Notes under the pieces: model-generated
Told to the model about the DNA's origin: nothing
Database searches by the model: none
Seen by the model: only the letters and a program-made list of their open reading frames with translations
Shown here: positions 16,772 to 45,463 of the stretch, piece after piece
How positions within the stretch are numbered: the first letter of the stretch is position 1
Layout: every line of letters starts with the position of its first letter
Source of the DNA: Escherichia coli
Lineage (GTDB): Bacteria; Pseudomonadota; Gammaproteobacteria; Enterobacterales; Enterobacteriaceae
Assembly: GCF_046105845.1 (NCBI RefSeq)
Contig: NZ_CP151004.1
DNA length: 64,000 nt
Direction: 5' to 3' (one strand)
Position numbers and translations under genes: made by a program

Positions 16772-16793
16772 GCGGTAAGTTTTATAGAAAATA

Positions 16794-16820
16794 CCGCTCC
16801 CGACACCACATCGGGAGCGG
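16794..16820. terminator. Stem-loop between the convergent mcrC and large helicase genes (likely bidirectional terminator)
   Basis: CCGCTCCCGA-CACCACA-TCGGGAGCGG hairpin located between the mcrC stop (16771) and the helicase stop (16828). Confidence 0.5.
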
Positions 16821-16827
16821 CTCATCA

Positions 16828-19800
16828 TCAGGAGGCGATCACCTCCACCAGCACATCCGTTGCCCAACTCTCTTCGCTGTTGGCGACATTCCCTTCCTTG
16901 CAGGCCTGAGCCATTTTGACTAACTGGAAAGAAACGTCATCGCGGAAATCAAAGTAATGCCATTGCGATGCAAAGTTGATGCGCCAGTAGCCCATCCCCT
17001 GATCGAAGCGGATCTTCAATACCTGACCATCATCAAAAGTCACCGTCAGTTTACGATGGTGAGGGATATCGCGCGGCGAGTCGAACACCGTCAGTTCTAC
17101 CGGCCTGCCCAGCGCAGCAGCAAACCACTGATCAGCGAAATCCTGAAAATCCGCTATGCTCATCCAGTCATGGAAAGGCCGGTTACCGGGGCGATCTTTA
17201 TCTTTAAATAGCGTATCCAGCGTCACTTCAGCGCCATCGGTCAGCTTTGTTTTTAGCGGTCTCAAAATTGATCCCAACAACGCCAGCGCAACCGGGTTTT
17301 GCAGATAGCGATCGGTATAGTGAACGCCGGTAATTCGCGTGTTATTCATCAGTGACTGCGCTTCTTCATGGTCGTTAAACAGCACGTCCCAGAAGCGTTG
17401 CCCAAACTGCGACAGTGGTCCATTCAACTGTTTGTGGATCTGAATGTCTTTGACCCGCTCGACAGCGTTGGCGGCTTTAGCCGGCAGAATAAATTCGTTC
17501 AGCTCTACCGTTTTATAGCCGAGACTACGTACCACCAGTTCGTCATTCAGGTGCCACTCCGGCCCCGGAATCGTTGCCTGCTGGCTACGAGAGGCCAGCG
17601 TCATCACGCGATCGGCAAAGGTGACCTGAGCAACGATCGGTAATTTCAAATCCTGTTCAACATGGCATAGCCGCACACCCAGCGCAGTAAATTGCGATAG
17701 TTCGTGCAACAGGTCCGGGTCATCCACTCCCGCAGGAATAACAAGATCGACCTCGACGTTGTCTTTTAGCCGATAGTTCTGAACCGCCGCGCGGAACTGA
17801 CGTGCGTATAAATCCCACTCATTGGGCGCGCCGGTCATCCACAGGGTGAGCTTTTCAGCGCCTTCGTTAATCGCCCGGCGAATCGTATCGCCAATGGCGC
17901 CAGGGCAGTAGCGGGCATCCGGCAGCGAGAATGTCTCTTCATCCGGTAAACCGATGTAATACGTGAAGTCATCGCCAAGCCAGGCCAGCGCCGCTTTGCG
18001 ATCCAGCAAATCGTGATCGTGGCGAGTCTGGGAATCAAGCAGGCATTCACTACATGCAGTCTCACAATGGCGGCAGCCTAACTGTTTCACCATTCCCTGC
18101 AATATAGCTTCAATGTGTACCGGTGCGCTGGAGGCAAAACCTGCACCACCGCTGATCACATCATAAAGCTGTACGGCTAATACCGATTGCCCATCCTCCA
18201 GTCTGACCGGACGTACAGAATAGCCGAGTTCTGCGGCGGAGATACCCAGAACGCCCGCCAGCGCCTGACGCAGAGCAACCGCCAGAGTCATGGCAACAAT
18301 CCGCCCCTCCTCTGTGTTATCTGGCAGATACTCGCCGTTTTGCGGTTTGCGCAGAACCATTTCAAAGACATCGGTGCGCGCCAGTGCGCCCAGGGTGACG
18401 TTCTTCATGAGTGCCGTCGAACCGGGGCAAATCAGACGATGATTCTGGCTATCGCGGTCCGCTTTACCCGGACGCGGTGGATAGTGAGCTTCCATGCTTT
18501 TCGGCGCATCATTTTCATTCAGCATCGACTCAGCACGGCCACAGCTCAGACACAATGCATAACCGTGTCCACCTTCCCCCAAACTTTGCTGGAAAACATG
18601 CCCATCAGCCCCAGAAGCCATATAACCCATTAGCGGGTTAGGCAACGGTACGGGCTCTGCTTTAACAAAGACCCACGCGGGGACAACCGGGACGAATTTC
18701 ATGGTTTCAATATTGTTCGTTACCGGAGCGTGTGCATCGGTGACAAACCCGGCAGGCTGCAGCACCTGACGGCGATTATCCATGATTATTTTTTCGCCGC
18801 AGGCGCTATTGGAGCAAAAGAGCATCCCGGAACTGCTCATCCCCTCTTCATAGCCAATGGTCCCGCATTTGTGACAGCGCCAGGCGCAATCCAGACGCTG
18901 GGCTTCATTGGTATCAGCATTAATGTTGTGCCAGTGCAGTGAGACACCGGCAGAGCGGAAGACACGGCCATCAAGAATGATCTCTGCTCCCGGTGCATAT
19001 TCACGAATGGCAACACCGAGGTTACGGGAAGGTAATCCTTTATAACGGGAGACGTTATCTTCACGGTCCTTTTTATCACGACTTTTTTGCGATTTTTCGC
19101 GGATATAATCTTCCATTGTGAAGTTATCAAACGTCACTACATCTGTCGGGAAACCGTATCCCGGCAAGAAGGTTCTGGCAGCTAGATCGCGCAGCAGATA
19201 CTCGCCACAGTGCCGTTTCTTCTCCAGCTCTATGCGCTTACGATAAGGCGTTTGCGGCTGCGACTCACGCTCCTGTGTCACGAGATCGCGATAAACGGAG
19301 AGCCACCGCTGCTGCAGGAAGGTGATCGCGTTGATTGTTTTATCCCGCAGATATTCGGCTCTTGCACCATGCAACGCCGTACCTTTCACCAGCCGTTCCA
19401 GCGCCGTGTCGATATCAAGAACAGGGCGTTCCAGCCAGACTTTGAAGCGTTCGCATTTTGACTGCCCGTCATCTTCACCGAAAAACCAGAGGCTATCGAG
19501 GCTGGTTTTCTCTTTATCGGTTTCGCCAATAACGTTACATAAAAAGTCGGACAGTAATAATGCATTGACGTGACGTTGCACCAGTCGGGCGGAGTTCATC
19601 GCGACCATGGGTGCCGGGATCATGGTTTCAAATGGCCAGAGCGGGTTGGCAAAAACCTGCTGGTCGTGTGGGTTACCTTTACATAGGGTGTAAGAGATCG
19701 CACGTGATTCTTTACTACGCCCGGCTCGCCCGGCGCGCTGTAAATAGTTGGCCGGATGTGGCGGTACGTTGTTCATTACCACCGCAGTAATGCCCCCGAT

Positions 19801-22800
19801 ATCAACCCCCATTTCCATGGTGGTGGAACAGTTGAGAACATTTAGTTGCCCATTCTTGAACATCTTTTCATAGCTTTGCAGACGTTCTGACGACTGCTGG
19901 GCAGAGTGCTCGGCAGTGCGATAGTAGAAACCGCCTTCCACGACACGATCGTTGATGTCTGTCCAGACGTTTTCCGACCGCAATTGTGCGATCAGCGGAT
20001 CATTGCTGACCCAGTCGCGTGCTTTTGCCAGACCCTCTGCGTAGTCTTCCTGTGAACGATCCAGCTTCCAGATTTCCGGCATGGTGACTTTCTGCGCGAC
20101 AAAAGTGTCATATTGCGCCTGGGTAAGATGCTCGAACGAAATATGGGTAGGCAGATAAGGGGTTAAGCCTTTAAAAGCCGTATCCAGGATTTTATTGGTT
20201 ACCGGGCAAATCCAGGCATCCGTGATTAATGAAAAAGTCATATGCTCTTTCGGTAAATAAAAACGGTTGCCATCGGGTTTCAGTACTGCAAGCGGTCCGG
20301 TAAGTTGGGCCCATGCTTCTTTCAGCCATGTATTGATAATATCAATAGTCGCCGTATTGACGGTTTTGAATCCAGCCCCCAGCATCAGTAACTTCGCTAA
20401 ACGATGGGATACGTTGCCATTACGAATTTGAGGCCAGCGTCTGTTCTGATTATCTTCAGGATCTTTTGATTCCGGGTTACGGACGAATTTTGATGAAAAA
20501 CGGCTACCGATCCAGTTTTTCAGCTCATCATCCAGCTGTGTGAAGTTGCTCTCACGAACGTAATGATCCAGCGTAACTTTGAGAAAATCGCGCCAGTCAT
20601 CCAGCGTTAATCCTTTTTCCTGCCAGTGCAGAGGGATCTTATGTATTTTCTCCAGCCCCAGGTAACCAACCTGAACCAGCCCTTGTGTTTCCAGGCTGTT
20701 AGTCCGTTTAGGGCGACGCATGAATTCCCGGAATAACAACATTTCCGAAAGCTTTAGAGGCCCGCCGTTTTCATTAAACACTTCAGGCTTAAGATAATGG
20801 TTATATTGCAGAACCGGGCCACGGATATCGGCTCTCTCTTTAAGCTCGTTAACCATTTCTGTCCAGGTTCGGGATACCAGAGTAATTGCAGCTTTTCCAC
20901 CGATTGCAGACTGGTAAGCCTGTTCAAGCTGCTCGGCCTGCGCTTCTGATAATTTCGCTTGATCCGGCAATCCCCAGCTTCGATATTCTTCTGCCTGCTC
21001 ACGGGCTTGCTTTACCCTGGTCGCTAATTTTTCCAGATCGGCATTAGCGTTCGGCGCCGTGGGCGTTTGCGTTCGTTGATGCCAGCTCAGAATTTCGACT
21101 ACGCTTCCGCGTAAGCGACTACGTTCTGCTTCTTGCTGCATACGCACCGCCATCCGGGCTGTCCCTTGTCGACTATCCGTAAAGGTAATGAGTCGACGTC
21201 CTCGCCCTGGCAACGAATCTGGTCCGACGCCCTCTTTGCCTTCATCACTGGCAAAGTCCTGACAATACTCAAGAACGGTAGGCACGATGTTAGTAACGTA
21301 AAATGGCCCACCTAATAATGCACGCCGAAAGGGTTGTTTTCCGCTCATGCCTCGGTAGCCACAGCCGCTGGCGCTACAAACCTGTTCAATATCATTAATA
21401 ATCAGCGGAATGCTGTCATTATTAATAACGCCAATACGGCGCGTCTGACGGTCGAGGCGTTGTAGGGTATAGCCTGTCTCGCTGGTCTCTCCTGCGGCAA
21501 TAATCAACGGAGGCTGGAAACTGTTCTCTTTTTCGACTTTTTCCTCTGTAGTGTCATGTTCAACAGGTACTTCATCCTGCAAGGAGAACTCATCGCCACC
21601 TTTATTTTCCCATTGGACAAGTTTGCCCTTTTTGTCCTGCGCCAGAAGATGAGGCTCATTACAATCATTACAGAACGCCACTTCGTATACAGGGCTTCCA
21701 CAGTCACAATTTTGTCGCTGGTTCACATACACATAGCCAAAGGGCCAGCCTTTTTCGAGCGGTGTACCGTGCTTTAATCTGCAATCTTTATCAACACAAG
21801 CCCATATTCCCTGGGTATTACGCTGGAAGATATGCGCCCTGACTTTAAGAAATGCGGGATCCTTTGCATTAGGTTGAGTCCCTGAACAGACATCGATCCA
21901 ACGCAGTACTTCCTGCTGGCTGTAATGCTGTTTTGTCAGCACGTTTAACCGCTCTGTTATCTCATCCAGCTTCATCGGATTGGGCTGTTTGACCAACATC
22001 TCACGTATGTAACGCGCTTCGGGGGAATGCGTAAGCGCATAAAAGCGATCAGGACTTATACCTTTAATTTTATTATCATTTTTATCTCTTAGATCCAGAT
22101 CGGGTATTTGCTCTATTTCGTCTAACGGAAGAGAAACGTTTTTGGATGGTTCCAGTTCAGGAATCACCCGACTTCCGTCCAGAACATCGATGCGCTCCTT
22201 CGGGATACCGGATAATTCAGAGAGAAATTTTTTCAGCTGCTTTTCGACGTCGCTGCCGGCAATGGTCGCAGAGGTCGCTACAAAGCGCACATCATCTGGC
22301 GTCACGCCAAACGCTGTCATCACACGACGCAGCTGGAGCGCCAGTTCAGCGGCCTGCGACCCGACATAGGTATGCGCTTCATCCAGTACAATCCAGCGTA
22401 GTGATTTTTGTGCTTTGGATTGCTGGATAATCGGGGCGTCGACCTGGCGAACCATCATATATTCCAGCATCGTGCCGTTGGTCACCAGAATCGGGGCAGG
22501 TTCTTCACGCATTTTTTCGCGCGAGAGCACCTCATTCGGCCTTTTTGCCTGTTCGCTTTTTACCGAAGCGTGTAGGTTTTCGGTGTTACCGTTGTAAAGG
22601 CAGTAGCGGATCCCGGTACCAAAACCACGCGTCCAGGCATCCAGACGCTCGCGCTGTGAATTAATCAGGGCGTTCAATGGATAGAGAAAAAGGGCTCGGA
22701 CACCGACCAACGGATTGTTGCCATTTTCATGCAGTTCCCGGTAAAGATCTTCCAGCACCGGTACCATAAAACATTCCGTTTTACCTGAACCCGTACCACT

Positions 22801-23172
22801 GGTTACCACCACTGAATGTTTCTTTTCCAGCAAAGCTTTCCAACTGGCTAACTGGTGTGTAAAAGGCTTCCAGTCAGCACCAAATCGGTACCGGCCATTA
22901 CTCTGATCATCCAGTGAATCAACCACTGCTTTGCTCAACAATGCGTTGCCTTCCGTCAGACTGCGCATCGTGTGGTTTGACTCCTTCCAGCCAAACATTT
23001 GCTGGAATACCGGAGAAGCAAGGAATGAGCCCGGTTTCCCACAATCAGCCCCCATTTGTTGCGCGAGATGTTCACGCAGCTGCGGGTTGGTTACGCCCAT
23101 GATACTGAGCGTTGCTTCAGTTGAACGAGACAACGATTGTTCAATAAGTGACGAAAAATAGCGTGTAGTCAT
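16828..23172 (-). CDS. druE: Giant (2114 aa) SF2 DEAH-box helicase with MrfA-type Zn-binding (DUF1998/MZB-like) Cys clusters; candidate Druantia type III DruE-like defense helicase
   Basis: Walker [10 protein letters not shown] (~22780..22800), DEAH box VLDEAHTY (~22367..22384), SAT motif, motif [10 protein letters not shown] (~19718..19741), Cys4 clusters CHKCG...CSNSACG and [11 protein letters not shown] (~18040..18880). Forms an operon with the 1112-aa gene upstream (12-bp gap). The DruE name is inference from size, architecture and locus, not a verified hit. Confidence 0.75.
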
Positions 23173-23184
23173 CCTTATTCCTTT

Positions 23185-26100
23185 TTATTTTTTAGCAACA
23201 TAACGCAACAGGCTGCACTGAAAGATGGTCTTAAACCAGCGGGAATCGAAGTCCCTGACTTGCCTCAGGAAAAATACGGCACCGGGTTTACGGTCAAATA
23301 CAGCTTCAAAAGAAGTATTTCCGCTTGCCACAGCTGCAGCGAAGACGGGTAACCAGGCCACGGAATAGCGGTGATTTGCGTCAGGATTAATACCAATCAC
23401 TGGCTTTTTTTGTGACATCATCCATTTATACAGACGCTTGCAGCCATATTCAGGCCAGCGAGCTTCACTGTGCTCACGTAAAAGCTCCTGATACCACCCG
23501 TGGACACAAGATTCAGGAATAGACGGAGGGAGATATCCGTTACTTAACCATTTCTCAATTTCATCGGCATATGTCGGGAACACGAGCCCCAGCCGTTGAA
23601 ACATATTAGTAACCAGTAATTTCTGGGTTTCCTCCGGTGCACCTTTTTGGCTCAGGAACAATTTGAAACGCTCAGATGCAGCTTTGATCTCAAAGATGGG
23701 GAAAAACTCCCATAGAATAGGGAACTCATTCTCAATACGACTCAGGTACTCTGCTGACATTTCAAATTTGAAGAGCGACATTGCCAATGCCTGCGGATGC
23801 TGCACCAGTGCACGCCATACTTCAAAGGTTGCCAGTGGTAAATACCCGAATTGATCGTACAGGCTACGCATAAATTGCCAGCCGGAATGGGCAGGATCGT
23901 TAGCCATCTGTCCGAGAACCAGTGTGATGGTATTAACTTCTGCCTGTGGATTAAAAAGCTGGGTCGCTTTCTGCAATGAGCGGATGTTGCTTTCTTCTAC
24001 CGGTAACGAAGATTCGCCACGAATGAAGCAGGGACGAAAAGCCATCTCTTCACCCGGTTTAGGGACAACCAACCACGGTCCATTTTTGTTAACGATTGAG
24101 CTCAACTCATATTCACCGACAGGCACTCCCTCGCTCATTCTAGATGCTAAGGGAATGGATTTCCTCTCGGGTTCACTTAACAGCATGATAACGGGGGAAG
24201 GAATCTGCCCAGCACGATGGTTCACTGACTGGCTGAGTAATAGTTCTTTTTCATAATCATAGCGCAGGCTGTATTTATAGCGACGAATTTGCCAGGCCAT
24301 GACCACACCTGCCCCCGTAATACGCATCTCAACAACCTGATCAATACCTGCCTCAAGTGAAATCAGGTTCTCAATATGTTCGCGAAGACTATAGAGATTC
24401 AATTCAACAGGACGATCGCTCAACGCCGTATAACACCATTCATGCCATGCCTGTAATCCACTAACGGAGCGCAAATACAACTGCAATGTATATTTTGTCG
24501 GCTCACCATTTCTGGAGAACAGAAACGCTCTGGAACCCAGCAGATCATGCAGCGTAATGTTTTTATCCAGAGGACGTCCGTTTACATCAAGAGCGAGACA
24601 GCCTTTAGCGGGAAAAGGTAACTCAATGTCGATGGGGTCAGCCGCCAAATTAGGCAGAACTTGTAATGTAATAAATGCCGGAGGTACCCCTTCCGCTTTA
24701 AGTTGTATCTCTGTTCGCCCCTCAGTACGCTTACGTGTAGCCTCCAATGTTTTATCTTTAAGTTTTGCTACACAAGGATGCTGTGTGGTGATTAAGATAG
24801 TGCCTTCATTTGCGTGCATTCCACCTTTTATCTCAATACTGAAATCAGCAGGCAAGATACCGATTTTGCGACGCAAGAGCGTTTCATTGTTACTATTACG
24901 GATAGAAAGATATTGAGCCCCCAGCATCTCTTGTATATGACATTGCTCAATTGAAATTCCGCTCAGGTAACGCGTTACATCAATGCTTTGAATATCCGGT
25001 AGTGTAGAAATGACTTTTGGTACACCAATAAATGTTTCATCTGGATGACAAACCCAGCTTGCACGCTTTCCATTTAGAGCAAACCTTCCGATGCTGATTT
25101 GTTCTCTTCCGGTGCGAATCCGATAAGTTTCATTTGCTGTAACTGTAACGTCCTGACATCCCTTCACAGGTAGTGCTTTTAGTCCTAATACGTTTACTGC
25201 GCTCGATTGGCCATCAAAACCAGCAACATTGCTATTATCCCGAGGGAGTACAATCAGAACATCGCTGCTTCGCACACTGCAAGAAGCCTGTCCCTGTAAC
25301 AGCCATTGATCTGCATCAACGATGAAGGTTAACGGCACCTCACCAATGGCAATTTCACTGTCATCAAGTTTAATGCTCCCAACAATCATCCCTCCAGCAC
25401 GAGCCACTAATGACAAACCTGCCGATGGATTTTGCCTGACAAATCTCACTTCGCTTTTACGTAATCGAACTGTTGCCTGTCTGTTTTCCAGGGAAGCATA
25501 GGCTGGCCCAAGGCCAGAGACTTCCTCACCATCTTCACAAATGGCAAGTTCAAAGCGCGTAGTTGACGGCTCGCTTGTTACAGGAAAGGAAACTTCGTCC
25601 GGAAGAGATACTATCACCCTAAGCTCATCTGGATGCTTTTCTGACCAATAGAATTGGCAACGCGTACTCTTATTTTTTTGTAGTCGAGGCTTAGCCTCTA
25701 CAGAGGCTGCGCATAGCAGTCCATTCAAAAAATGCGTTCCTGTTTCATCATCTAACGGTATTGGAAACTCGCTTCGCCAGGTAGGGTGAACCTTCTCAAG
25801 CTGTTGTACTGGTTCTTTGTGATTTATTAGGTTGTGAGTAAGTACTAAGGAATTGAGGTTATCAGCCATATGACTGATAAGTTCTACAGAGGTATCTTCG
25901 CTAAAAACAGTTGGCAGCGCTGATTTTTCTATGACAGCTCTTGCCAGCGAAAGGGCAGAAAAACCTGACTGCTTTGCTTGCTCATATTGTCCAAGGATCC
26001 TGGAGAAAACAGCCAGAAAGCGACTGTCTGATTCTTTGAGTAGCCGGAAAGGTAAACCACCTTCACTGAATAATGTTCCGAGAAAATTGCGTCGTTCAGA

Positions 26101-26523
26101 TTCATAAAATCGAATTGGGCGCAGCCAGTAATCTTCCATCCCTTTCGGTACGATAGTACCAAGCTCTGTGGCGGTGAATGAAATCCCTATTTTTTTATAT
26201 ATAGGGTCCCACGTCCATCCGCATTGCCGTTCATAATCCCTGCGGTACCACTCAGAGCAAAAAAGAACAAAACAGGCAGCAAAGTCCCTATTACATATAT
26301 TAGATTGTGATTGATCGACCGCACGGAGTAGCTGCGTTAATTGGGTATATTCATCATTGGTTGCATGATATTCATAAAGAGGACGGCCATCCGGTTGTCT
26401 CAACCCTCTAAGATTCACAAAGTTACTTAGCCAGGAAGTACATTTTACCCATGAAATGTATTCTGATTGACCCAAAGCAAGCTCCTTAGAGATAAAAGAT
26501 ACAAAAACAAAACCCCACAACAC
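23185..26523 (-). CDS. druH: Large (1096-1112 aa) protein of unknown function encoded immediately upstream of the giant helicase; candidate Druantia type III DruH-like partner
   Basis: Uninterrupted 1112-codon ORF with no recognisable catalytic motifs, co-directional and near-contiguous with the helicase gene. Start is uncertain: GTG at 26523, or TTG at 26475 preceded by a strong AAGGAG SD. An AT-rich promoter region lies upstream (26524..26970). Confidence 0.65.
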   Translation of the reverse strand: MLWGFVFVSFISKELALGQSEYISWVKCTSWLSNFVNLRGLRQPDGRPLYEYHATNDEYTQLTQLLRAVDQSQSNICNRDFAACFVLFCSEWYRRDYERQCGWTWDPIYKKIGISFTATELGTIVPKGMEDYWLRPIRFYESERRNFLGTLFSEGGLPFRLLKESDSRFLAVFSRILGQYEQAKQSGFSALSLARAVIEKSALPTVFSEDTSVELISHMADNLNSLVLTHNLINHKEPVQQLEKVHPTWRSEFPIPLDDETGTHFLNGLLCAASVEAKPRLQKNKSTRCQFYWSEKHPDELRVIVSLPDEVSFPVTSEPSTTRFELAICEDGEEVSGLGPAYASLENRQATVRLRKSEVRFVRQNPSAGLSLVARAGGMIVGSIKLDDSEIAIGEVPLTFIVDADQWLLQGQASCSVRSSDVLIVLPRDNSNVAGFDGQSSAVNVLGLKALPVKGCQDVTVTANETYRIRTGREQISIGRFALNGKRASWVCHPDETFIGVPKVISTLPDIQSIDVTRYLSGISIEQCHIQEMLGAQYLSIRNSNNETLLRRKIGILPADFSIEIKGGMHANEGTILITTQHPCVAKLKDKTLEATRKRTEGRTEIQLKAEGVPPAFITLQVLPNLAADPIDIELPFPAKGCLALDVNGRPLDKNITLHDLLGSRAFLFSRNGEPTKYTLQLYLRSVSGLQAWHEWCYTALSDRPVELNLYSLREHIENLISLEAGIDQVVEMRITGAGVVMAWQIRRYKYSLRYDYEKELLLSQSVNHRAGQIPSPVIMLLSEPERKSIPLASRMSEGVPVGEYELSSIVNKNGPWLVVPKPGEEMAFRPCFIRGESSLPVEESNIRSLQKATQLFNPQAEVNTITLVLGQMANDPAHSGWQFMRSLYDQFGYLPLATFEVWRALVQHPQALAMSLFKFEMSAEYLSRIENEFPILWEFFPIFEIKAASERFKLFLSQKGAPEETQKLLVTNMFQRLGLVFPTYADEIEKWLSNGYLPPSIPESCVHGWYQELLREHSEARWPEYGCKRLYKWMMSQKKPVIGINPDANHRYSVAWLPVFAAAVASGNTSFEAVFDRKPGAVFFLRQVRDFDSRWFKTIFQCSLLRYVAKK

Positions 26524-28970: not shown

Positions 28971-29928
28971 TTAGTACTCGATCCAAGGATCGCGCTTGCT
29001 TTCAGGCAAGGGCTGCTCTAATGCCTGCATTTGCTCTGCCGAGAGTCCGGTATATCGTTGTATCCATTCAGGATCTGCCCCATTCTGCAACAACAATCGG
29101 AGGAGGCTCCGTTCCCCTTCTACTTTCCCTTCTTTCCTCCCCCTCTCCCTTCCCAACAGCCATCCATCATTATGAATTCGCTCTGCAATCGTCATTATTC
29201 GCTCCCTTTGTTGTGGCATTCGACTGGTTAGTTCGCTGATAAACTCTTTAAAACGCGCTTCATCGCCAGTCAGTAAAATGTAATTTAACAGCGCAGTTAT
29301 CTGGCTGTCATTAGTACACTCTGTAACCAGTAATACTACCAGTTGGTCGATAAGTCCCATCAGATCGCGCTGGCGAATATGCTTTTGGATCAACTCCAAC
29401 AGGGCGACTCTGCGATGCTGCACAATCTCGTCGTCTGGCACGACAGTGACATCCACCAGCGGGAACGCGGCGTTATAAACTTTCCGTGCGGTAGCCGGGT
29501 CGGCAAATTCGTCCAGCCAGCACAGGGACCAGGGATAAGGACTACGGCTACCGTGATAAAACAGCATCGGGATGACCAGCGGTAGCGGCCGGCGTTTATC
29601 ATGCTCGATATGGCGCTGCATCACCGCCATGGAATAGCGCATAAGGCGAAACGCCATATGAATATCCTCGCGGCTCTGATGTTCAATCACTACGTAAATA
29701 TAACCATCACCTTCACGGGTCTTTACCGACCACAGAAATATCGGAATGTAGCGCCCGCAATTTTTCATCGACAAAGCTGGCGGATTCCAGTTTTAAGCTG
29801 TCGAGATCGCACAGTTCACGTAAATCTTTGGGTAAGTGGATCTCCATAAAATCCCGCGCGGTGTCAGGGTGCGTGAGAAAGGATTTAAATAATGCGTCAT
29901 GCGGCGTGCTGGTTGTGAAGTTTGTCAT
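28971..29928 (-). pseudogene. rpnD: Rpn (YhgA-like, transposase_31 / PD-(D/E)XK) recombination-promoting nuclease, disrupted by a frameshift
   Basis: N-terminal fragment (29713..29928; [33 protein letters not shown]...) and C-terminal fragment (28971..29774; ...[21 protein letters not shown]...) are in different frames, overlapping around 29713..29774, consistent with a 1-nt indel. Confidence 0.7.
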
Positions 29929-43200: not shown

Positions 43201-45463
43201 CTTCACGCTAAGTAGTGAAACCGCCCGCACCGATGCAAACGGCGATGCCGTGGTCACATTGCGTGGCACAAAAGCGGGTGAGTTTACAGTTACGGCGACG
43301 CTGACCAGAAATAATACCGTTGCTCATCAGCAAGTCACTTTTATTGGGGATACAAACAGCGCGCAGCTCCAGCCGCTGACTGCCTCATTAAATACCATTG
43401 TTGCGGGTAACAGTACGGGGAGTACCCTGACGGCAACGATCCTGGACGCTTACCAAAATCCGCTTAAAGACCAGCAGGTCACTTTCCAGAGTAACGATGT
43501 CACTCTAAGCGGAACAGAAGTCACCACCAATACGCTGGGTCAGGCGACAGTAACAATGACCAGCAATATTGCCGGGCAACATAACGTCGTGGTGAGCCGG
43601 AAAGCGCAAGCCTCCGATAATAAAACGTTTAGTTTATCAGTGCTGCCGGATGAAAGTTCGGCGAAGGTAATAAGTATAACCGGAGCCGAAAAAACGATAA
43701 CGGTTGGCGAAAACATCACGCTACGGATACTCGTCCAGGACGCGTTTAACAATGTAATAGCGGGTCAACGCGTCAGATTAAGTGCGCAGCCAACAGCTAA
43801 CATTACGATAGGCGATACGGCTTACACTGATAATAACGGTTACGCGTACGTTAACCTTCTCAGCACCCAGCCTGGGGTTTATCAGGTGACGGCAACGCTG
43901 GACAATAACAGTAGTAGTAAGGTTGATGTGAATGTGGCAAATGGCAAACTCGAGTTAACATCATCGAAGCCAGAAACCACGGTCCATAACAGTGAAGGTA
44001 TTACGCTGACCGCAACGGCGAGAAATGCACGGGATGAATTGATGCCAGGGCAAATTATCACCTTTAGCGTAACGCCTGAAGGTGCAACGCTAAGCAATAC
44101 AGGGGAAGTCCTTACTGACCAGTCTGGTCAGGCCAAAGTGACGCTGACCAGTAACAAAGTGAATGTCTATACCGTTACGGCCACAATGGGCAAAGATGTT
44201 CCCGTTCAGAGCCAGGTAACGGTTGCGGTTAAGGCAGATGCTAAAACGGCACATGTTGTGAGCGTCGTGGCTTCTCCTGACACCATAACCGCCGACGGCA
44301 TCGATAGCAGCACCGTCACGTCACGAGTAGAAGATGATTACGGATTCCCGGTTGAAGGTGTCGATGTTCGTTACGCCTTAGACACCAAAGGTCGCCCGGT
44401 AGTTAATATTCCAACTACGCGTACCGATCAGTCCGGGCAAGTCACGGCGACAATAACCAGTACATTGGCAGAAACCTTAACGGTCAATGTGCAAGTTCCT
44501 GGTACAGCCAACCAATCCGCAGCTATTACCTTGCTTGCCAGCACGGCGGATGAAAGTAAGTCATTATTGAAATCCGACGTTGGCACTCTGATGGCTGACT
44601 ACCAGCATAGCGCGAAACTTACGCTAACATTGCAAGACAAGTACGGTAACCCGATAGTGACGTCTGATCATCTGGAATTTGTCCAGTCAGGTCCCTTCGT
44701 GAACTTTCTCAAGTTGAGCGATATTGATTACAGCCAAAGAAATTATGGCGAGTACACCGTGACTGTCACTGGCGGAAAAGAGGGAACAGCGACCCTCATT
44801 CCCATGCTGAACGGGGTTCATCAGGCAAAATTAAGCGTATCGCTGAATCTCATCCAATCGATAAAAGAAATGTCCGGTCATGTCACTGCAAACAACCATA
44901 CCTTCTCCACGGCTAAATTCCCGAGCGAAGGTTTTGCAGGAGCGTATTACACACTCAACAATGATAACTTTGAAGCGGGTAAAACCGTTGATGATTATAT
45001 GTTTTCAAGTTCACAGAGTTGGGTGTCTGTCGATGCGTCAGGTAAAGTTTCTTTCTCAAATATCGGCGATCAAACGTCAGTCACAATAAGTGCTGTTCCC
45101 CGACAAGGAGGTACAACCTACCAGACCTTAATTAAGCTGAAAGGCTGGTGGGTGAATAATGGAAATCATACCAATATCTGGCTAGCTGCCAATGCGCTCT
45201 GTCATGCGAAAAATGATGGATATAATCTTCCTGGCATCACACATTTGACGTCTGGCGAAAACAAACGCACGCAGGGATCACTGTATGGTGAATGGGGGAA
45301 CGTTGGAGCGTTTTCCAGTAATTCGCAATTTACACAAGGTGCTTACTGGACAAATGAATCTGATGATTACAATAGGCACTACTATGTACAGATGCTAACG
45401 GGTATGACCGGAAGCGACGCTGATTCCAGCCCCCAACTGACCGCCTGCCGTAAATCACTTTAA
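40223..45463 (+). CDS. Giant (1746 aa) inverse autotransporter adhesin of the intimin/invasin family: LysM, beta-barrel, tandem Big_1 Ig-like domains, C-terminal lectin-like domain
   Basis: N-terminal signal region; LysM (YTLGALESAQSVADRFGISLEELRRLNQF); intimin/invasin-type barrel (FDFLHPWYDTPDYLLFSQHTLHRTDDRTQINTGLGWRHF...); more than ten repeats of the ...TLTATVTD...NPL...V.F... Big_1 pattern; C-terminal Cys-containing domain. Confidence 0.85.
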   Translation: MASTNAHQIKNNDQNSLCGLGDKIRRLTAGVCLFTQIFFPVMATAQNVVHAKPQTTVSSPSPLIENNTVPYTLGALESAQSVADRFGISLEELRRLNQFRTFARGFDNVRQGEELDVPATTLQKSHEQQNAVPPANGENTLENQIASTSQRVGTLLSQDMNSEQASGMARGWASSEASGAMTNWLNNFGTAKISLGVDEDFSLKNSQFDFLHPWYDTPDYLLFSQHTLHRTDDRTQINTGLGWRHFTPSWMSGINLFFDHDLSRYHSRAGLGAEYWRDYLKLSSNAYIGLTGWRSAPELDNDYEARPANGWDLRAEGWLPAWPQLGGKLVYEQYYGDEVALFDKNDRQSNPHAITAGLNYTPFPLLTLSAEQRQGKQGENDTRFAVDLTWQPSSSMQKQLNPDEVAGRRSLASSRYDLIDRNNNIVLEYRKKELIRLSLLDPVKGKSGEIKPLVSSIQTKYALKGYNIEAAALEAAGGKVSTSGKDITVTLPGYRFTNTPETDNTWSIDVTAEDVKGNLSRHEQSMVVIQAPTLSQKDSLLSVNPLTVAADKKSTTTLTVTAHDSDGTPVPGLALQTRSEGVQDITLSDWTDNGDGSYTQMLTAGTTSGSVTLTPQINGESAVKESIVVNIVPVVSSRDHSSITIDNVSYYAGDDIKVRVELKDDSNQPVAYQKEELVKAVTVENSKPGATIVWHEERPGVYTANYPAHKQGTALRAQLSLHNWNAPLQSHIYNIEANQNKARVATLSATNNDVYADKKTFNTLTINVTDESDNPLTNHQVTFKNEKGSAEFVEPPQQNTDAYGVATINMVSQVAEENTISATLPNGFSQRIIAKFVSDSSTPKFKQLVADPDTIIAGNSQGSTLTATVTDFHNNPLKDMKVNFVAPGGSQLDNTSATTDQSGIVRVHLTSSKAGSYSVDASLEANKNIHQSVTITVVPNREQSVMTLNAGSGSAIANNTNTVILTASVKDVYGHPLPDEDVKFTLPASMTGNFTLSSETARTDANGDAVVTLRGTKAGEFTVTATLTRNNTVAHQQVTFIGDTNSAQLQPLTASLNTIVAGNSTGSTLTATILDAYQNPLKDQQVTFQSNDVTLSGTEVTTNTLGQATVTMTSNIAGQHNVVVSRKAQASDNKTFSLSVLPDESSAKVISITGAEKTITVGENITLRILVQDAFNNVIAGQRVRLSAQPTANITIGDTAYTDNNGYAYVNLLSTQPGVYQVTATLDNNSSSKVDVNVANGKLELTSSKPETTVHNSEGITLTATARNARDELMPGQIITFSVTPEGATLSNTGEVLTDQSGQAKVTLTSNKVNVYTVTATMGKDVPVQSQVTVAVKADAKTAHVVSVVASPDTITADGIDSSTVTSRVEDDYGFPVEGVDVRYALDTKGRPVVNIPTTRTDQSGQVTATITSTLAETLTVNVQVPGTANQSAAITLLASTADESKSLLKSDVGTLMADYQHSAKLTLTLQDKYGNPIVTSDHLEFVQSGPFVNFLKLSDIDYSQRNYGEYTVTVTGGKEGTATLIPMLNGVHQAKLSVSLNLIQSIKEMSGHVTANNHTFSTAKFPSEGFAGAYYTLNNDNFEAGKTVDDYMFSSSQSWVSVDASGKVSFSNIGDQTSVTISAVPRQGGTTYQTLIKLKGWWVNNGNHTNIWLAANALCHAKNDGYNLPGITHLTSGENKRTQGSLYGEWGNVGAFSSNSQFTQGAYWTNESDDYNRHYYVQMLTGMTGSDADSSPQLTACRKSL

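What the first reader, a model, noticed from the sequence alone, without database searches (positions are those of the whole stretch)
23185..26523. Partner protein has no recognisable motifs and an ambiguous start (GTG at 26523 or TTG at 26475 with a strong SD)
The 1112-codon ORF begins with GTG. A TTG 16 codons downstream is preceded by a perfect AAGGAG at 6-nt spacing, which would give a 1096-aa product starting MGQSEYISWVK. I cannot find any nuclease, ATPase or other catalytic signature by eye. The effector role in this system, if any, is therefore unassigned.
Basis: seen in the sequence. Interest (0 to 1): 0.5.

Follow-up and report, generated by a model that had tools for sequence, protein, structure and literature searches.

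The report
DruH (YjiT) of type III Druantia
This ORF is druH (yjiT), the already catalogued partner of the giant helicase DruE in a two-gene type III Druantia anti-phage system of E. coli; it starts at the TTG, and it has no known enzyme fold, as 2026 structural papers on relatives also report.

Summary
A 1112-codon ORF runs from GTG 26523 to the stop at 23185. An in-frame TTG at 26475 follows AAGGAG (26487-26482) by 6 nt.

The start is the TTG. AAGGAG-N6-TTG is invariant in orthologues from Salmonella Typhi, Cronobacter and a fourth, unnamed assembly, while the sequence upstream diverges. S. Typhi has a stop 6 codons upstream. RefSeq and the K-12 annotation use the same TTG.

The 1096-aa product is DruH/YjiT: PADLOC DruH3 1830 bits end to end, NCBIfam NF038336 1261 bits. 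It lies 12 nt upstream of druE (2114 aa) in the immigration control region, next to mcrBC and hsdRMS. K-12 keeps only the first 503 codons.

No Pfam domain, catalytic motif or enzyme fold was found. [quoted passage not shown]

Five 2026 papers on distant relatives (the solved E. coli DruH is about 24% identical) disagree: 3'-5' exonuclease, ATP-gated ssDNA binder, or phage sensor.

New here: the mutationally essential N-terminal patch is near-invariant family-wide. The published ATP/nucleobase pocket is confined to the O-island 172 subclade and absent from this protein.

Already known; modest interest.

The parts
23185..26475 (-). druH (yjiT) coding sequence: TTG start 26475-26473, TAA stop 23187-23185, 1096 aa
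   Evidence: PADLOC DruH3 PDLC00049 scores 1830.5 bits over residues 1-1096 of a 1100-position model. NCBIfam NF038336 scores 1261.5 bits against a cut-off of 150. RefSeq annotates yjiT as 3291 nt in a 99.8% identical genome. dN/dS is about 0.1 against an orthologue of 77% identity.
26482..26487 (-). Shine-Dalgarno AAGGAG, 6 nt upstream of the TTG start
   Evidence: Read directly. Invariant in all four orthologous loci aligned.
26476..26523 (-). 16-codon upstream extension of the mechanical ORF (GTG 26523); non-coding leader, not part of the protein
   Evidence: It is not conserved, and the orthologues differ there by indels. In-frame stops lie 6, 15 and 18 codons upstream of the TTG in the orthologues. 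K-12 has ATG in place of the GTG, yet its annotation still starts at the TTG.
25672..26475 (-). N-terminal all-helical domain, residues 1-268 (Pfam YjiT_N); the most conserved part, with near-invariant E42, E75, R78, R79, Y81, W87, W89, W117, R119 and E138-G-G-L-P
   Evidence: AF2 model. Conservation. Residue mapping onto the patch mutated by Wu et al. is.
23995..25671 (-). Central beta-rich region, residues 269-827: tandem Ig/FN3-like domains; the most variable part
   Evidence: AF2 secondary structure. Foldseek hits only tandem Ig/FN3 proteins. Only 3.9% of columns are near-invariant.
23188..23994 (-). C-terminal all-helical domain, residues 828-1096; the domain that docks on the DruE stalk in the P. 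aeruginosa complex
   Evidence: AF2 model. The role is inferred from 10.64898/2026.05.13.724313. Near-invariant H863, W866, E923 and D1077.
23173..23184 (-). 12-nt druH-druE spacer (AAAGGAATAAGG) carrying the druE ribosome-binding site; the two genes form one operon
   Evidence: Sequence read.
16828..23172 (-). druE, 2114 aa: SF2 DExH helicase (GTGSGKT 126, DEAH 264, RAGRAGR 1146), MZB zinc domain, and a C-terminal region with DRY 1954-1956 and HHR 2038-2040
   Evidence: PADLOC DruE3 PDLC00037 scores 2696.7 bits over residues 1-2110. Motifs. MZB Pfam hit. It is 33% identical to the O-island 172 DruE.
16793..16821 (-). Terminator-like hairpin (13-bp stem, 8 GC pairs) just after the druE stop

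Best explanation
The ORF is druH (E. coli gene name yjiT), the first gene of a two-gene type III(-A) Druantia anti-phage operon, druH-druE. The operon sits in the E. coli immigration control region between yjiS and mcrBC/hsdRMS. Translation starts at TTG 26475 behind the AAGGAG, giving 1096 aa. [quoted passage not shown] These points are shown here (about 0.95).

The mechanism is inferred from experiments on homologues plus conservation mapping done here (about 0.45). DruH is not the main killing enzyme. It is the licensing subunit of the DruE helicase-nuclease. Its family-invariant N-terminal domain engages exposed ssDNA or 3' ends at forked phage replication or recombination intermediates, and possibly trims them 3'-5'. 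Its C-terminal helical domain docks on the DruE stalk, which breaks the auto-inhibited DruE dimer. DruE can then translocate 3'-5' and unwind and degrade phage DNA. The variable Ig-like middle acts as a scaffold or a specificity module. ATP-competitive gating of ssDNA binding, described for the O-island 172 DruH, probably does not operate in this protein. The single confidence value given (0.7) is a blend of these two levels.
For: Identity. Full-length hits to DruH3 and DruE3 models and to the YjiT family model NF038336. Precomputed Pfam families YjiT_N and YjiT_2nd on homologues, with YjiV_N, DEAD, Helicase_C and MZB on their neighbouring gene. The window sequence is 99.8% identical to RefSeq yjiT. 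The gene order matches the K-12 immigration control region, where yjiT is a 505-aa remnant 99% identical to residues 1-503.

Start codon. AAGGAG-N6-TTG is invariant across four loci, at least three of them from different genera, while the upstream sequence diverges. Upstream in-frame stops are present in the orthologues. Most of the listed homologues begin at the equivalent position.

Real gene. dN/dS is about 0.1 in all three domains. 1534 cluster representatives at 50% identity match with E<=0.001.

Architecture. AF2 mean pLDDT is 86.8, matching the cryo-EM descriptions read.

Mechanism. DruH and DruE are both required for defence in homologous systems. PaDruH degraded ssDNA and 3' overhangs and bound DruE only on forked DNA, through its C-terminal domain. 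The N-terminal patch whose mutation abolishes defence in the O-island 172 DruH maps to F69, E75, R78, R79, W89, W117, L132, G139, G140 and P188 here. Each of these columns keeps its consensus residue in 94-108 of 109 diverse homologues. The N-terminal domain has the highest density of near-invariant columns, 12.3% against 3.9% in the Ig-like region.
Against: The biochemistry of DruH is contested. Hu et al. detected no DruH nuclease activity under any condition and no DruE-DruH complex. Himpich et al. saw no stable complex and no effect of DruH on helicase activity. Wu et al. saw nuclease activity mainly in a dimeric fraction and favour a protein-sensing role.

A contaminating exonuclease is not excluded by what I read in Loeff et al.; no catalytically dead DruH control in vitro is described in the sections read.

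The experimentally studied E. coli DruH (O-island 172) is only about 24% identical to this protein. PaDruH could not be retrieved for comparison. No experiment on this clade turned up in the papers I found and read.

The PLD-like domains of DruE were reported dispensable in one study and essential in another.
Confidence: 0.7

Rival explanations
1. DruH is an ATP-gated ssDNA clamp. At normal ATP levels a nucleobase pocket between Ig5 and the C-terminal domain is occupied by ATP. When ATP falls during infection, DruH binds the ssDNA spooled out by DruE and immobilises the phage genome without cutting it (Hu et al., 10.64898/2026.05.12.722862).
For: Cryo-EM structures of the O-island 172 DruH with ssDNA and with ATP in the same pocket. 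R1031A, H1062A and R1064A each reduce defence about 10-fold. An ATP/Mg-bound dimer using R1064, K1067, N672 and Y733 was seen independently.
Against: MAFFT and hhalign profile-profile alignment agree on the mapping. The pocket residues Y670, N672, Y733, D735, H1062, R1064 and K1067 map to T663, Q665, T720, A722, A1033, H1035 and S1038 in the window protein. R1031 lies in an insertion that this clade lacks. Those residues are conserved only in relatives at least 48% identical to ECs_5259, and are variable in the rest of that clade and in the window clade. Residue-level alignment at 18% identity could be off by a few positions, and a non-homologous pocket cannot be excluded.
Confidence: 0.15
2. 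DruH is primarily a sensor of a phage protein. Its Ig-like or baseplate-J-like scaffold recognises a structural phage protein such as a baseplate or minor tail protein. That recognition switches DruH into an active, dimeric and possibly nucleolytic state that triggers DruE.
For: Wu et al. report a weak co-immunoprecipitation with baseplate protein Bas37_0273, positive selection in the Ig-like domains, and gain- and loss-of-function mutations in the N-terminal patch. Li and He report activation of the M. smegmatis system by minor tail protein Gp25 (abstract). Here the Ig-like region is the most variable part of the protein. This is compatible with the best explanation rather than exclusive of it.
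Against: The Foldseek search of the full model against viral structures returned only generic tandem-Ig proteins at TM<=0.13, with no baseplate J/gp6-type hit in the top 50. There was no significant PHROGs match. dN/dS in the Ig-like region is about 0.10, the same as in the other domains in the one pair that was not saturated. Defence against very different phage families is easier to explain by a DNA cue.
Confidence: 0.3
3. Translation starts at GTG 26523 (or TTG 26520), giving a 1112-aa (or 1111-aa) protein with a hydrophobic N-terminal extension, VLWGFVFVSFISKELAL.
For: The reading frame is open from 26523. K-12 carries an ATG at that position. A few gene callers extended homologues in the same way (P0017, P0021).
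Against: There is no Shine-Dalgarno sequence in the 20 nt before either codon. The extension is not conserved and is interrupted by stops in the orthologues. PADLOC and NCBIfam models begin at or after the TTG-initiated residue 1. RefSeq and K-12 annotations start at the TTG.
Confidence: 0.03
4. The ORF is a decaying or unexpressed remnant, as in E. coli K-12, with no current function.
For: K-12 and about 400 other complete E. coli genomes retain only part of the gene. IS insertions are seen in some strains. No sigma-70 consensus promoter was picked up upstream by the simple scan.
Against: In this window both druH and druE are full length against their profile models, and the helicase motifs are intact. 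dN/dS is about 0.1. 222 complete E. coli genomes carry a match covering at least 80% of the druH query. The promoter scan is a crude consensus search and the 5' region is AT-rich (36% GC).
Confidence: 0.02

Closest known systems
[not shown]
   Same: Same family: NF038336 'STY4851/ECs_5259', Pfam YjiT_N and YjiT_2nd. Profile-profile probability is 100% over about 1070 columns. Same length class (1119 vs 1096 aa). Same order of N-helical, Ig-like and C-helical domains. Same gene order, druH then druE. The N-terminal patch is conserved (F69, E75, R78, R79, W88/89, W115/117, EGGLP).
   Different: Only about 24% identical over the N-terminal half, and not alignable by BLAST or phmmer beyond it. The partner DruE proteins are 33% identical. 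The ATP/nucleobase pocket residues are not conserved, and the R1031 insertion is absent. The genomic setting also differs: the chromosomal immigration control region next to mcrBC and hsdRMS here, against a phage-like island with Zorya II and ARMADA II there.
PaDruH-PaDruE of Pseudomonas aeruginosa (ERY33375.1/ERY33374.1; Loeff, Chanez and Jinek 2026)
   Same: A two-gene type III system with the same described DruH architecture. The putative functional cleft is in the N-terminal helical domain. DruE carries C-terminal PLD-like domains. The window DruE has DRY (1954-1956) and H-x-R (2038-2040) about 84 residues apart, as in PaDruE D1917-R1918-Y1919 and H1999/R2001.
   Different: Pseudomonas homologues that I did retrieve are 44-46% identical. 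The exonuclease activity is reported by this group only.
E. coli K-12 yjiT (b4342) and yjiV (b4486)
   Same: Same locus and same TTG start. K-12 YjiT is 99% identical to residues 1-503 of the window protein.
   Different: K-12 carries a truncated yjiT of 505 aa and a yjiV pseudogene of 2.7 kb. The window carries the intact 3.3-kb druH and 6.3-kb druE.
MrfA/MrfB (B. subtilis) and DISARM DrmAB
   Same: DruE is a YprA/MrfA-type SF2 helicase with an MZB (DUF1998) domain. MrfA works with a separate 3'-5' exonuclease, MrfB, a division of labour analogous to the proposed DruE plus DruH pairing.

Membership tests
Druantia type III (DruH + DruE) | A DruH-family protein (PADLOC DruH3; NCBIfam NF038336 YjiT_fam above its curated cut-off) | tested here: met
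   PDLC00049 scores 1830.5 bits over residues 1-1096 against model positions 1-1099 of 1100. NF038336 scores 1261.5 bits against a cut-off of 150.
Druantia type III (DruH + DruE) | An adjacent, co-oriented druE encoding a protein of about 2000 aa: a YprA/MrfA-type DExH helicase with an MZB/DUF1998 domain | tested here: met
   PDLC00037 DruE3 scores 2696.7 bits over residues 1-2110. The intergenic gap is 12 nt. GTGSGKT, DEAH and RAGRAGR motifs are present. MZB domain E=1.4e-9.
Druantia type III (DruH + DruE) | A two-gene system with no druA-D, druF or druG genes | tested here: met
   The flanking genes are mcrC and mcrB on one side and yjiS and yjiR on the other, in the 99.8% identical annotated locus. 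A terminator-like hairpin directly follows druE.
Druantia subtype III-A (as opposed to III-B) | A long DruE with tandem C-terminal PLD-like domains | tested here: inconclusive
   The length of 2114 aa and the DRY/HHR motifs at the expected spacing fit this subtype. However, Pfam detects only MZB in the last 514 residues, and no structure of DruE was predicted here.
DruH architecture as solved by cryo-EM | [quoted passage not shown] | tested here: met
   The AF2 model has mean pLDDT 86.8, with helices in 3-267, strands in 272-818 and helices in 834-1095. Foldseek hits are all tandem Ig/FN3 proteins.
DruH functional N-terminal patch (Wu et al.) | Conserved F69, E75, R78/R79, W88, Y114/W115, L129, T131/L132 and G136/G137 (O-island 172 numbering) | tested here: met
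   All are present in the window protein as F69, E75, R78, R79, W89, Y116, W117, L132, T134, L135, G139 and G140. Most of these columns keep one residue in 94-108 of 109 sequences.
ATP-gated ssDNA-binding DruH (Hu et al.) | Nucleobase/ATP pocket formed by Y670, N672, H689, Y733, R1031, H1062, R1064 and K1067 | tested here: not met
   These map to T663, Q665, A684 (MAFFT only), T720, an insertion absent here, A1033, H1035 and S1038, by MAFFT and by hhalign. The residues are conserved only in close relatives of ECs_5259. This is sequence-level evidence at low identity.
Characterised nuclease / ATPase superfamilies | A recognisable catalytic domain or motif (Walker A, DExD/H, PLD HxK, HNH, GIY-YIG, PD-(D/E)xK, DEDD fold) | tested here: not met
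   [not shown]
Phage baseplate J-like (gp6) fold | Structural similarity of the N-terminal ~670 residues to baseplate wedge J-family proteins (claimed for the O-island 172 DruH) | tested here: inconclusive
   No baseplate J-type protein appears among the top 50 BFVD hits, which are all generic Ig repeats at TM<=0.13. No significant PHROGs hit. A whole-chain Foldseek search is a weak test for a 171-residue shared core.
Druantia type III (DruH + DruE) | Confers resistance to phages, with both genes required | not testable with these tools
   Shown only for homologous systems from E. coli O-island 172, P. aeruginosa and M. smegmatis.

The most novel reading that the evidence does not exclude
The invariant N-terminal helical domain of DruH (E42, E75, R78, R79, R119, E138-GGLP) is a previously unclassified DNA-end-processing (3'-5' exonuclease) fold common to all of the roughly 1500 DruH lineages. 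The ATP/nucleobase pocket described for the O-island 172 protein would then be a lineage-specific regulatory add-on. On this reading the YjiT clade in the E. coli immigration control region is an ungated, differently regulated version of the same machine.
Probability: 0.25. Interest if true: 0.6.

Novelty: already known. Interest (0 to 1): 0.27.

Why it matters
The gene itself is routine to annotate. It is DruH/YjiT, present in PADLOC, NCBIfam and Pfam, and annotated in hundreds of E. coli genomes.

What may be useful is the comparison. Three 2026 structural studies give incompatible roles for DruH, and all E. coli work used the O-island 172 clade. This window carries the intact form of the K-12 yjiT-yjiV remnant, a clade about 24% identical to the studied one.

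This clade keeps the N-terminal patch shown to be essential but lacks the published ATP/ssDNA pocket. It is therefore a natural test case for which DruH features are general to the family and which are lineage-specific.

The analysis also settles the start codon, a conserved weak TTG behind a strong Shine-Dalgarno sequence. That matters for cloning, because N-terminal tags on DruH were reported to abolish defence.

Tried and rejected
1. Pfam-A scan of DruH gave nothing. The tool's Pfam copy appears to predate the YjiT families that are listed as precomputed hits.

2. PHROGs search found no significant match.

3. Full-length Foldseek searches against the PDB and BFVD returned only generic tandem-Ig hits at TM about 0.1. 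The PDB fold library stops on 2026-04-08 and did not return 9tud.

6. I tried to identify PaDruH among the 310 held sequences by requiring R22, K28, E64 and E220. None matched, so the Jinek-lab mutant residues could not be mapped.

7. N-terminal fusions in homologues were inspected for functional hints. They are Q-rich coiled coils or short unknown domains and were uninformative.

8. The simple promoter scan found no consensus sigma-70 site upstream of druH. I did not take this as evidence against expression.

9. dS was saturated for the S. Typhi and Cronobacter comparisons, so only the L004 pair gives a usable whole-gene dN/dS.
Full report
**Observation.** The mechanical ORF 23185..26523 (-), 1112 aa and starting with GTG, exists. 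On the minus strand I read GTG at 26523-26521, AAGGAG at 26487-26482, a 6-nt spacer (CTTGCT) and TTG at 26475-26473. Between the upstream in-frame stop and this TTG the only other candidate starts are GTG 26523 and TTG 26520, and neither has a Shine-Dalgarno sequence. AAGGAG-N6-TTG occurs once in the 64-kb window, with 0.57 expected by chance. The motif alone therefore proves nothing; its position and its conservation do.

**Start codon.** I fetched orthologous loci from another enterobacterial assembly (L004, protein 77% identical), Salmonella Typhi (L005, STY4851, 63%) and Cronobacter sakazakii (L006, 71%).
- In the alignment, AAGGAG, the spacing and the TTG itself are invariant, while everything upstream diverges and carries indels.
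- In-frame stops lie 6 (S. Typhi), 15 (L004) and 18 (Cronobacter) codons upstream of the TTG. The 16-codon extension therefore cannot be part of the protein in those species.
- Most of the 120 listed homologues begin at the equivalent MxQSE... position.
- PADLOC's model aligns from residue 1 of the TTG product.
- RefSeq annotates a 3291-nt yjiT in a 99.8% identical genome.
- The K-12 annotation starts at the same TTG, even though K-12 has an ATG where this window has GTG 26523.

I conclude that TTG 26475 is the start and the product is 1096 aa. A weak start codon behind a perfect Shine-Dalgarno sequence is a conserved property of this gene.

**Identity.** The product matches PADLOC DruH3 (PDLC00049, 1830 bits, residues 1-1096 against model positions 1-1099 of 1100). 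It also matches NCBIfam NF038336, 'STY4851/ECs_5259 family (YjiT_fam)', at 1261 bits against a cut-off of 150. The ORF 12 nt downstream (16828..23172, 2114 aa) matches DruE3 end to end at 2697 bits. It has intact helicase motifs I, II and VI and an MZB zinc domain, and a strong hairpin follows its stop.

The neighbours are mcrBC, symE and hsdRMS on one side and yjiS and yjiR on the other. This is the E. coli immigration control region, whose proximal border gene is yjiT (PMC4498929). K-12 retains only a 505-aa YjiT, 99% identical to residues 1-503 here, plus a yjiV pseudogene. The window thus holds the intact ancestor of those remnants. Of 5426 complete E. coli genomes, 634 have a match and 222 carry at least 80% of the query.

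The gene is under purifying selection: dN/dS is about 0.10 in each of the three domains against L004. The family is large, with 1534 cluster representatives at 50% identity and E<=0.001, nearly all about 1100 aa.

**Is there a catalytic signature?** None was found.
- Pfam-A gives nothing. Newer Pfam families named YjiT_N and YjiT_2nd appear only as precomputed hits.
- A motif scan finds no Walker A, DExD/H, PLD, HNH or GIY-YIG motif.
- AlphaFold2 with a 64-sequence alignment gives a confident model (pLDDT 86.8). It has helices in 3-267, beta strands in 272-818 and helices in 834-1095.
- Foldseek against the PDB and viral structures finds only tandem Ig/FN3 proteins.

It also agrees with what three cryo-EM studies of homologues report.

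**What is known about DruH.** In the held library the papers that deal with DruH in depth date from late 2025 to mid 2026.
- Loeff et al. (10.64898/2026.05.13.724313) report that P. aeruginosa DruH is a Mg-dependent 3'-5' ssDNA exonuclease. Its putative site is in the N-terminal domain, and its C-terminal domain binds the DruE stalk only on forked DNA, opening an auto-inhibited DruE dimer. DruE's PLD-like domain then degrades DNA.
- Hu et al. (10.64898/2026.05.12.722862) find no nuclease activity and no complex. They solve E. coli DruH with ssDNA or ATP in one pocket and propose an ATP-gated ssDNA clamp.
- Wu et al. (PMC13192584) propose a phage-protein sensor with dimer-dependent nuclease activity, and define an essential N-terminal patch.
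- Himpich et al. (10.64898/2026.05.13.724758) see only an indirect in vivo association with DruE that is lost on infection.
- Li and He (PMC13316683) report activation by a minor tail protein in mycobacteria.

All the E. coli work used the O-island 172/SPIDER variant (ECs_5259, 1119 aa; PDB 9tud).

**How this protein relates to the studied ones.** It is a distant clade. Identity to ECs_5259 is 24% over the N-terminal half and is not detectable by BLAST or phmmer beyond that. The DruE proteins are 33% identical. Profile-profile alignment nevertheless aligns about 1070 columns with 100% probability.

I mapped the published functional residues with two independent alignments, MAFFT on 109 sequences and hhalign on two clade profiles.
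- The N-terminal patch is retained: F69, E75, R78, R79, W89, Y116, W117, L132, T134, L135, G139, G140 and P188 in window numbering. Most of these columns are near-invariant in 109 diverse homologues.
- The ATP/nucleobase pocket is not retained. Y670, N672, Y733, D735, H1062, R1064 and K1067 correspond to T663, Q665, T720, A722, A1033, H1035 and S1038. R1031 sits in an insertion that this clade lacks.
- Within the O-island 172 clade itself those pocket residues are conserved only down to about 48% identity.

Family-wide polar invariants are Y36, E42, E75, R78, R79, Y81, R119, E138, R234, D712, R814, H863, E923 and D1077. The N-terminal domain has the highest density of invariant columns and the Ig-like region the lowest.

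**Most likely mechanism.** This part is inferred. DruH is the obligatory licensing partner of the DruE helicase-nuclease rather than the main effector. The conserved N-terminal domain engages ssDNA or 3' ends at forked phage replication or recombination intermediates, and may trim them. The C-terminal helical domain recruits DruE and relieves its auto-inhibition. The variable Ig-like array acts as a scaffold or a specificity module.

I put about 0.95 on identity and start codon and about 0.45 on this mechanism. The protein-sensor model (0.3) is partly compatible with it. The ATP-gated clamp model (0.15) is disfavoured for this clade by the pocket analysis. The window DruE has DRY (1954-1956) and HHR (2038-2040) at the spacing of the PaDruE active-site residues. 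Pfam does not recognise a PLD domain there, and one study found the PLD domains dispensable.

**Verdict.** The start ambiguity is resolved, and the absence of a catalytic signature is real and shared with the whole family. The one result that goes beyond the literature I could read is that the published ATP/ssDNA pocket is lineage-specific, whereas the N-terminal patch is universal. That makes this immigration-control-region clade a useful comparator, with modest interest.

Noticed in passing
window 26521-26523 vs L008 6367-6369: The upstream in-frame GTG of this window is an ATG in E. coli K-12 (attagaaATGttg vs attagaaGTGttg). The K-12 annotation nevertheless starts yjiT at the downstream TTG.
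   Followed up: partly
window 26473-26487; L004, L005, L006 around position 1501: A TTG start codon behind a perfect AAGGAG is conserved in druH across the four loci compared, at least three of them from different genera. This suggests selection for a particular, possibly low or regulated, translation level of DruH relative to DruE.
   Followed up: partly
window 35579-37669 (+): A 696-aa ORF with pentapeptide repeats (weak NCBIfam hits to HetL, PipB2 and Qnr-type repeat proteins). No gene of that size is annotated between ytiA and yjiK in the otherwise collinear reference locus of strain MS1170.
   Followed up: no
window 40223-45463 (+): A 1746-aa inverse autotransporter adhesin. The IatC-like N-terminal domain scores 1120 bits, below the curated cut-off of 2400. 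An 'invasin' is annotated at the corresponding place in O157 Sakai.
   Followed up: no
P0244, P0252, P0258 (also P0208, P0254, P0257): Some DruH homologues carry a 350-430-aa Q-rich coiled-coil N-terminal extension, or an extra N-terminal segment of about 150 aa. These could be fusions with an additional component or gene-calling artefacts.
   Followed up: partly
L004 4801-5166 and 5166 onward: In this orthologous locus a 121-aa ORF sits between druH and a 1984-aa DruE. The DruE N-terminus appears split there, by a frameshift or by a genuine separate small gene.
   Followed up: no
L004 1-845; L005 45-920: Orthologous druH genes in other genera also neighbour restriction-type nucleases: Mrr_cat in L004, and HNH_2 with a ScoMcrA DNA-binding domain in S. 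Typhi. This placement in type IV restriction islands matches the window, where mcrBC lies next to druE.
   Followed up: no
window 28971-29774 (-): The Rpn-family recombination-promoting nuclease ORF is 267 aa and aligns from about position 60 of the RpnA-type models, so it may be N-terminally truncated. K-12 has the pseudogene rpnD at the equivalent place.
   Followed up: no
profile_search library vs precomputed Pfam hits: The Pfam-A copy used by profile_search returns nothing for DruH. The precomputed tables list PF27201 (YjiT_N), PF27205 (YjiT_2nd) and PF27116 (YjiV_N). A 'no Pfam hit' from that tool should therefore not be read as 'no Pfam family exists'.
   Followed up: yes
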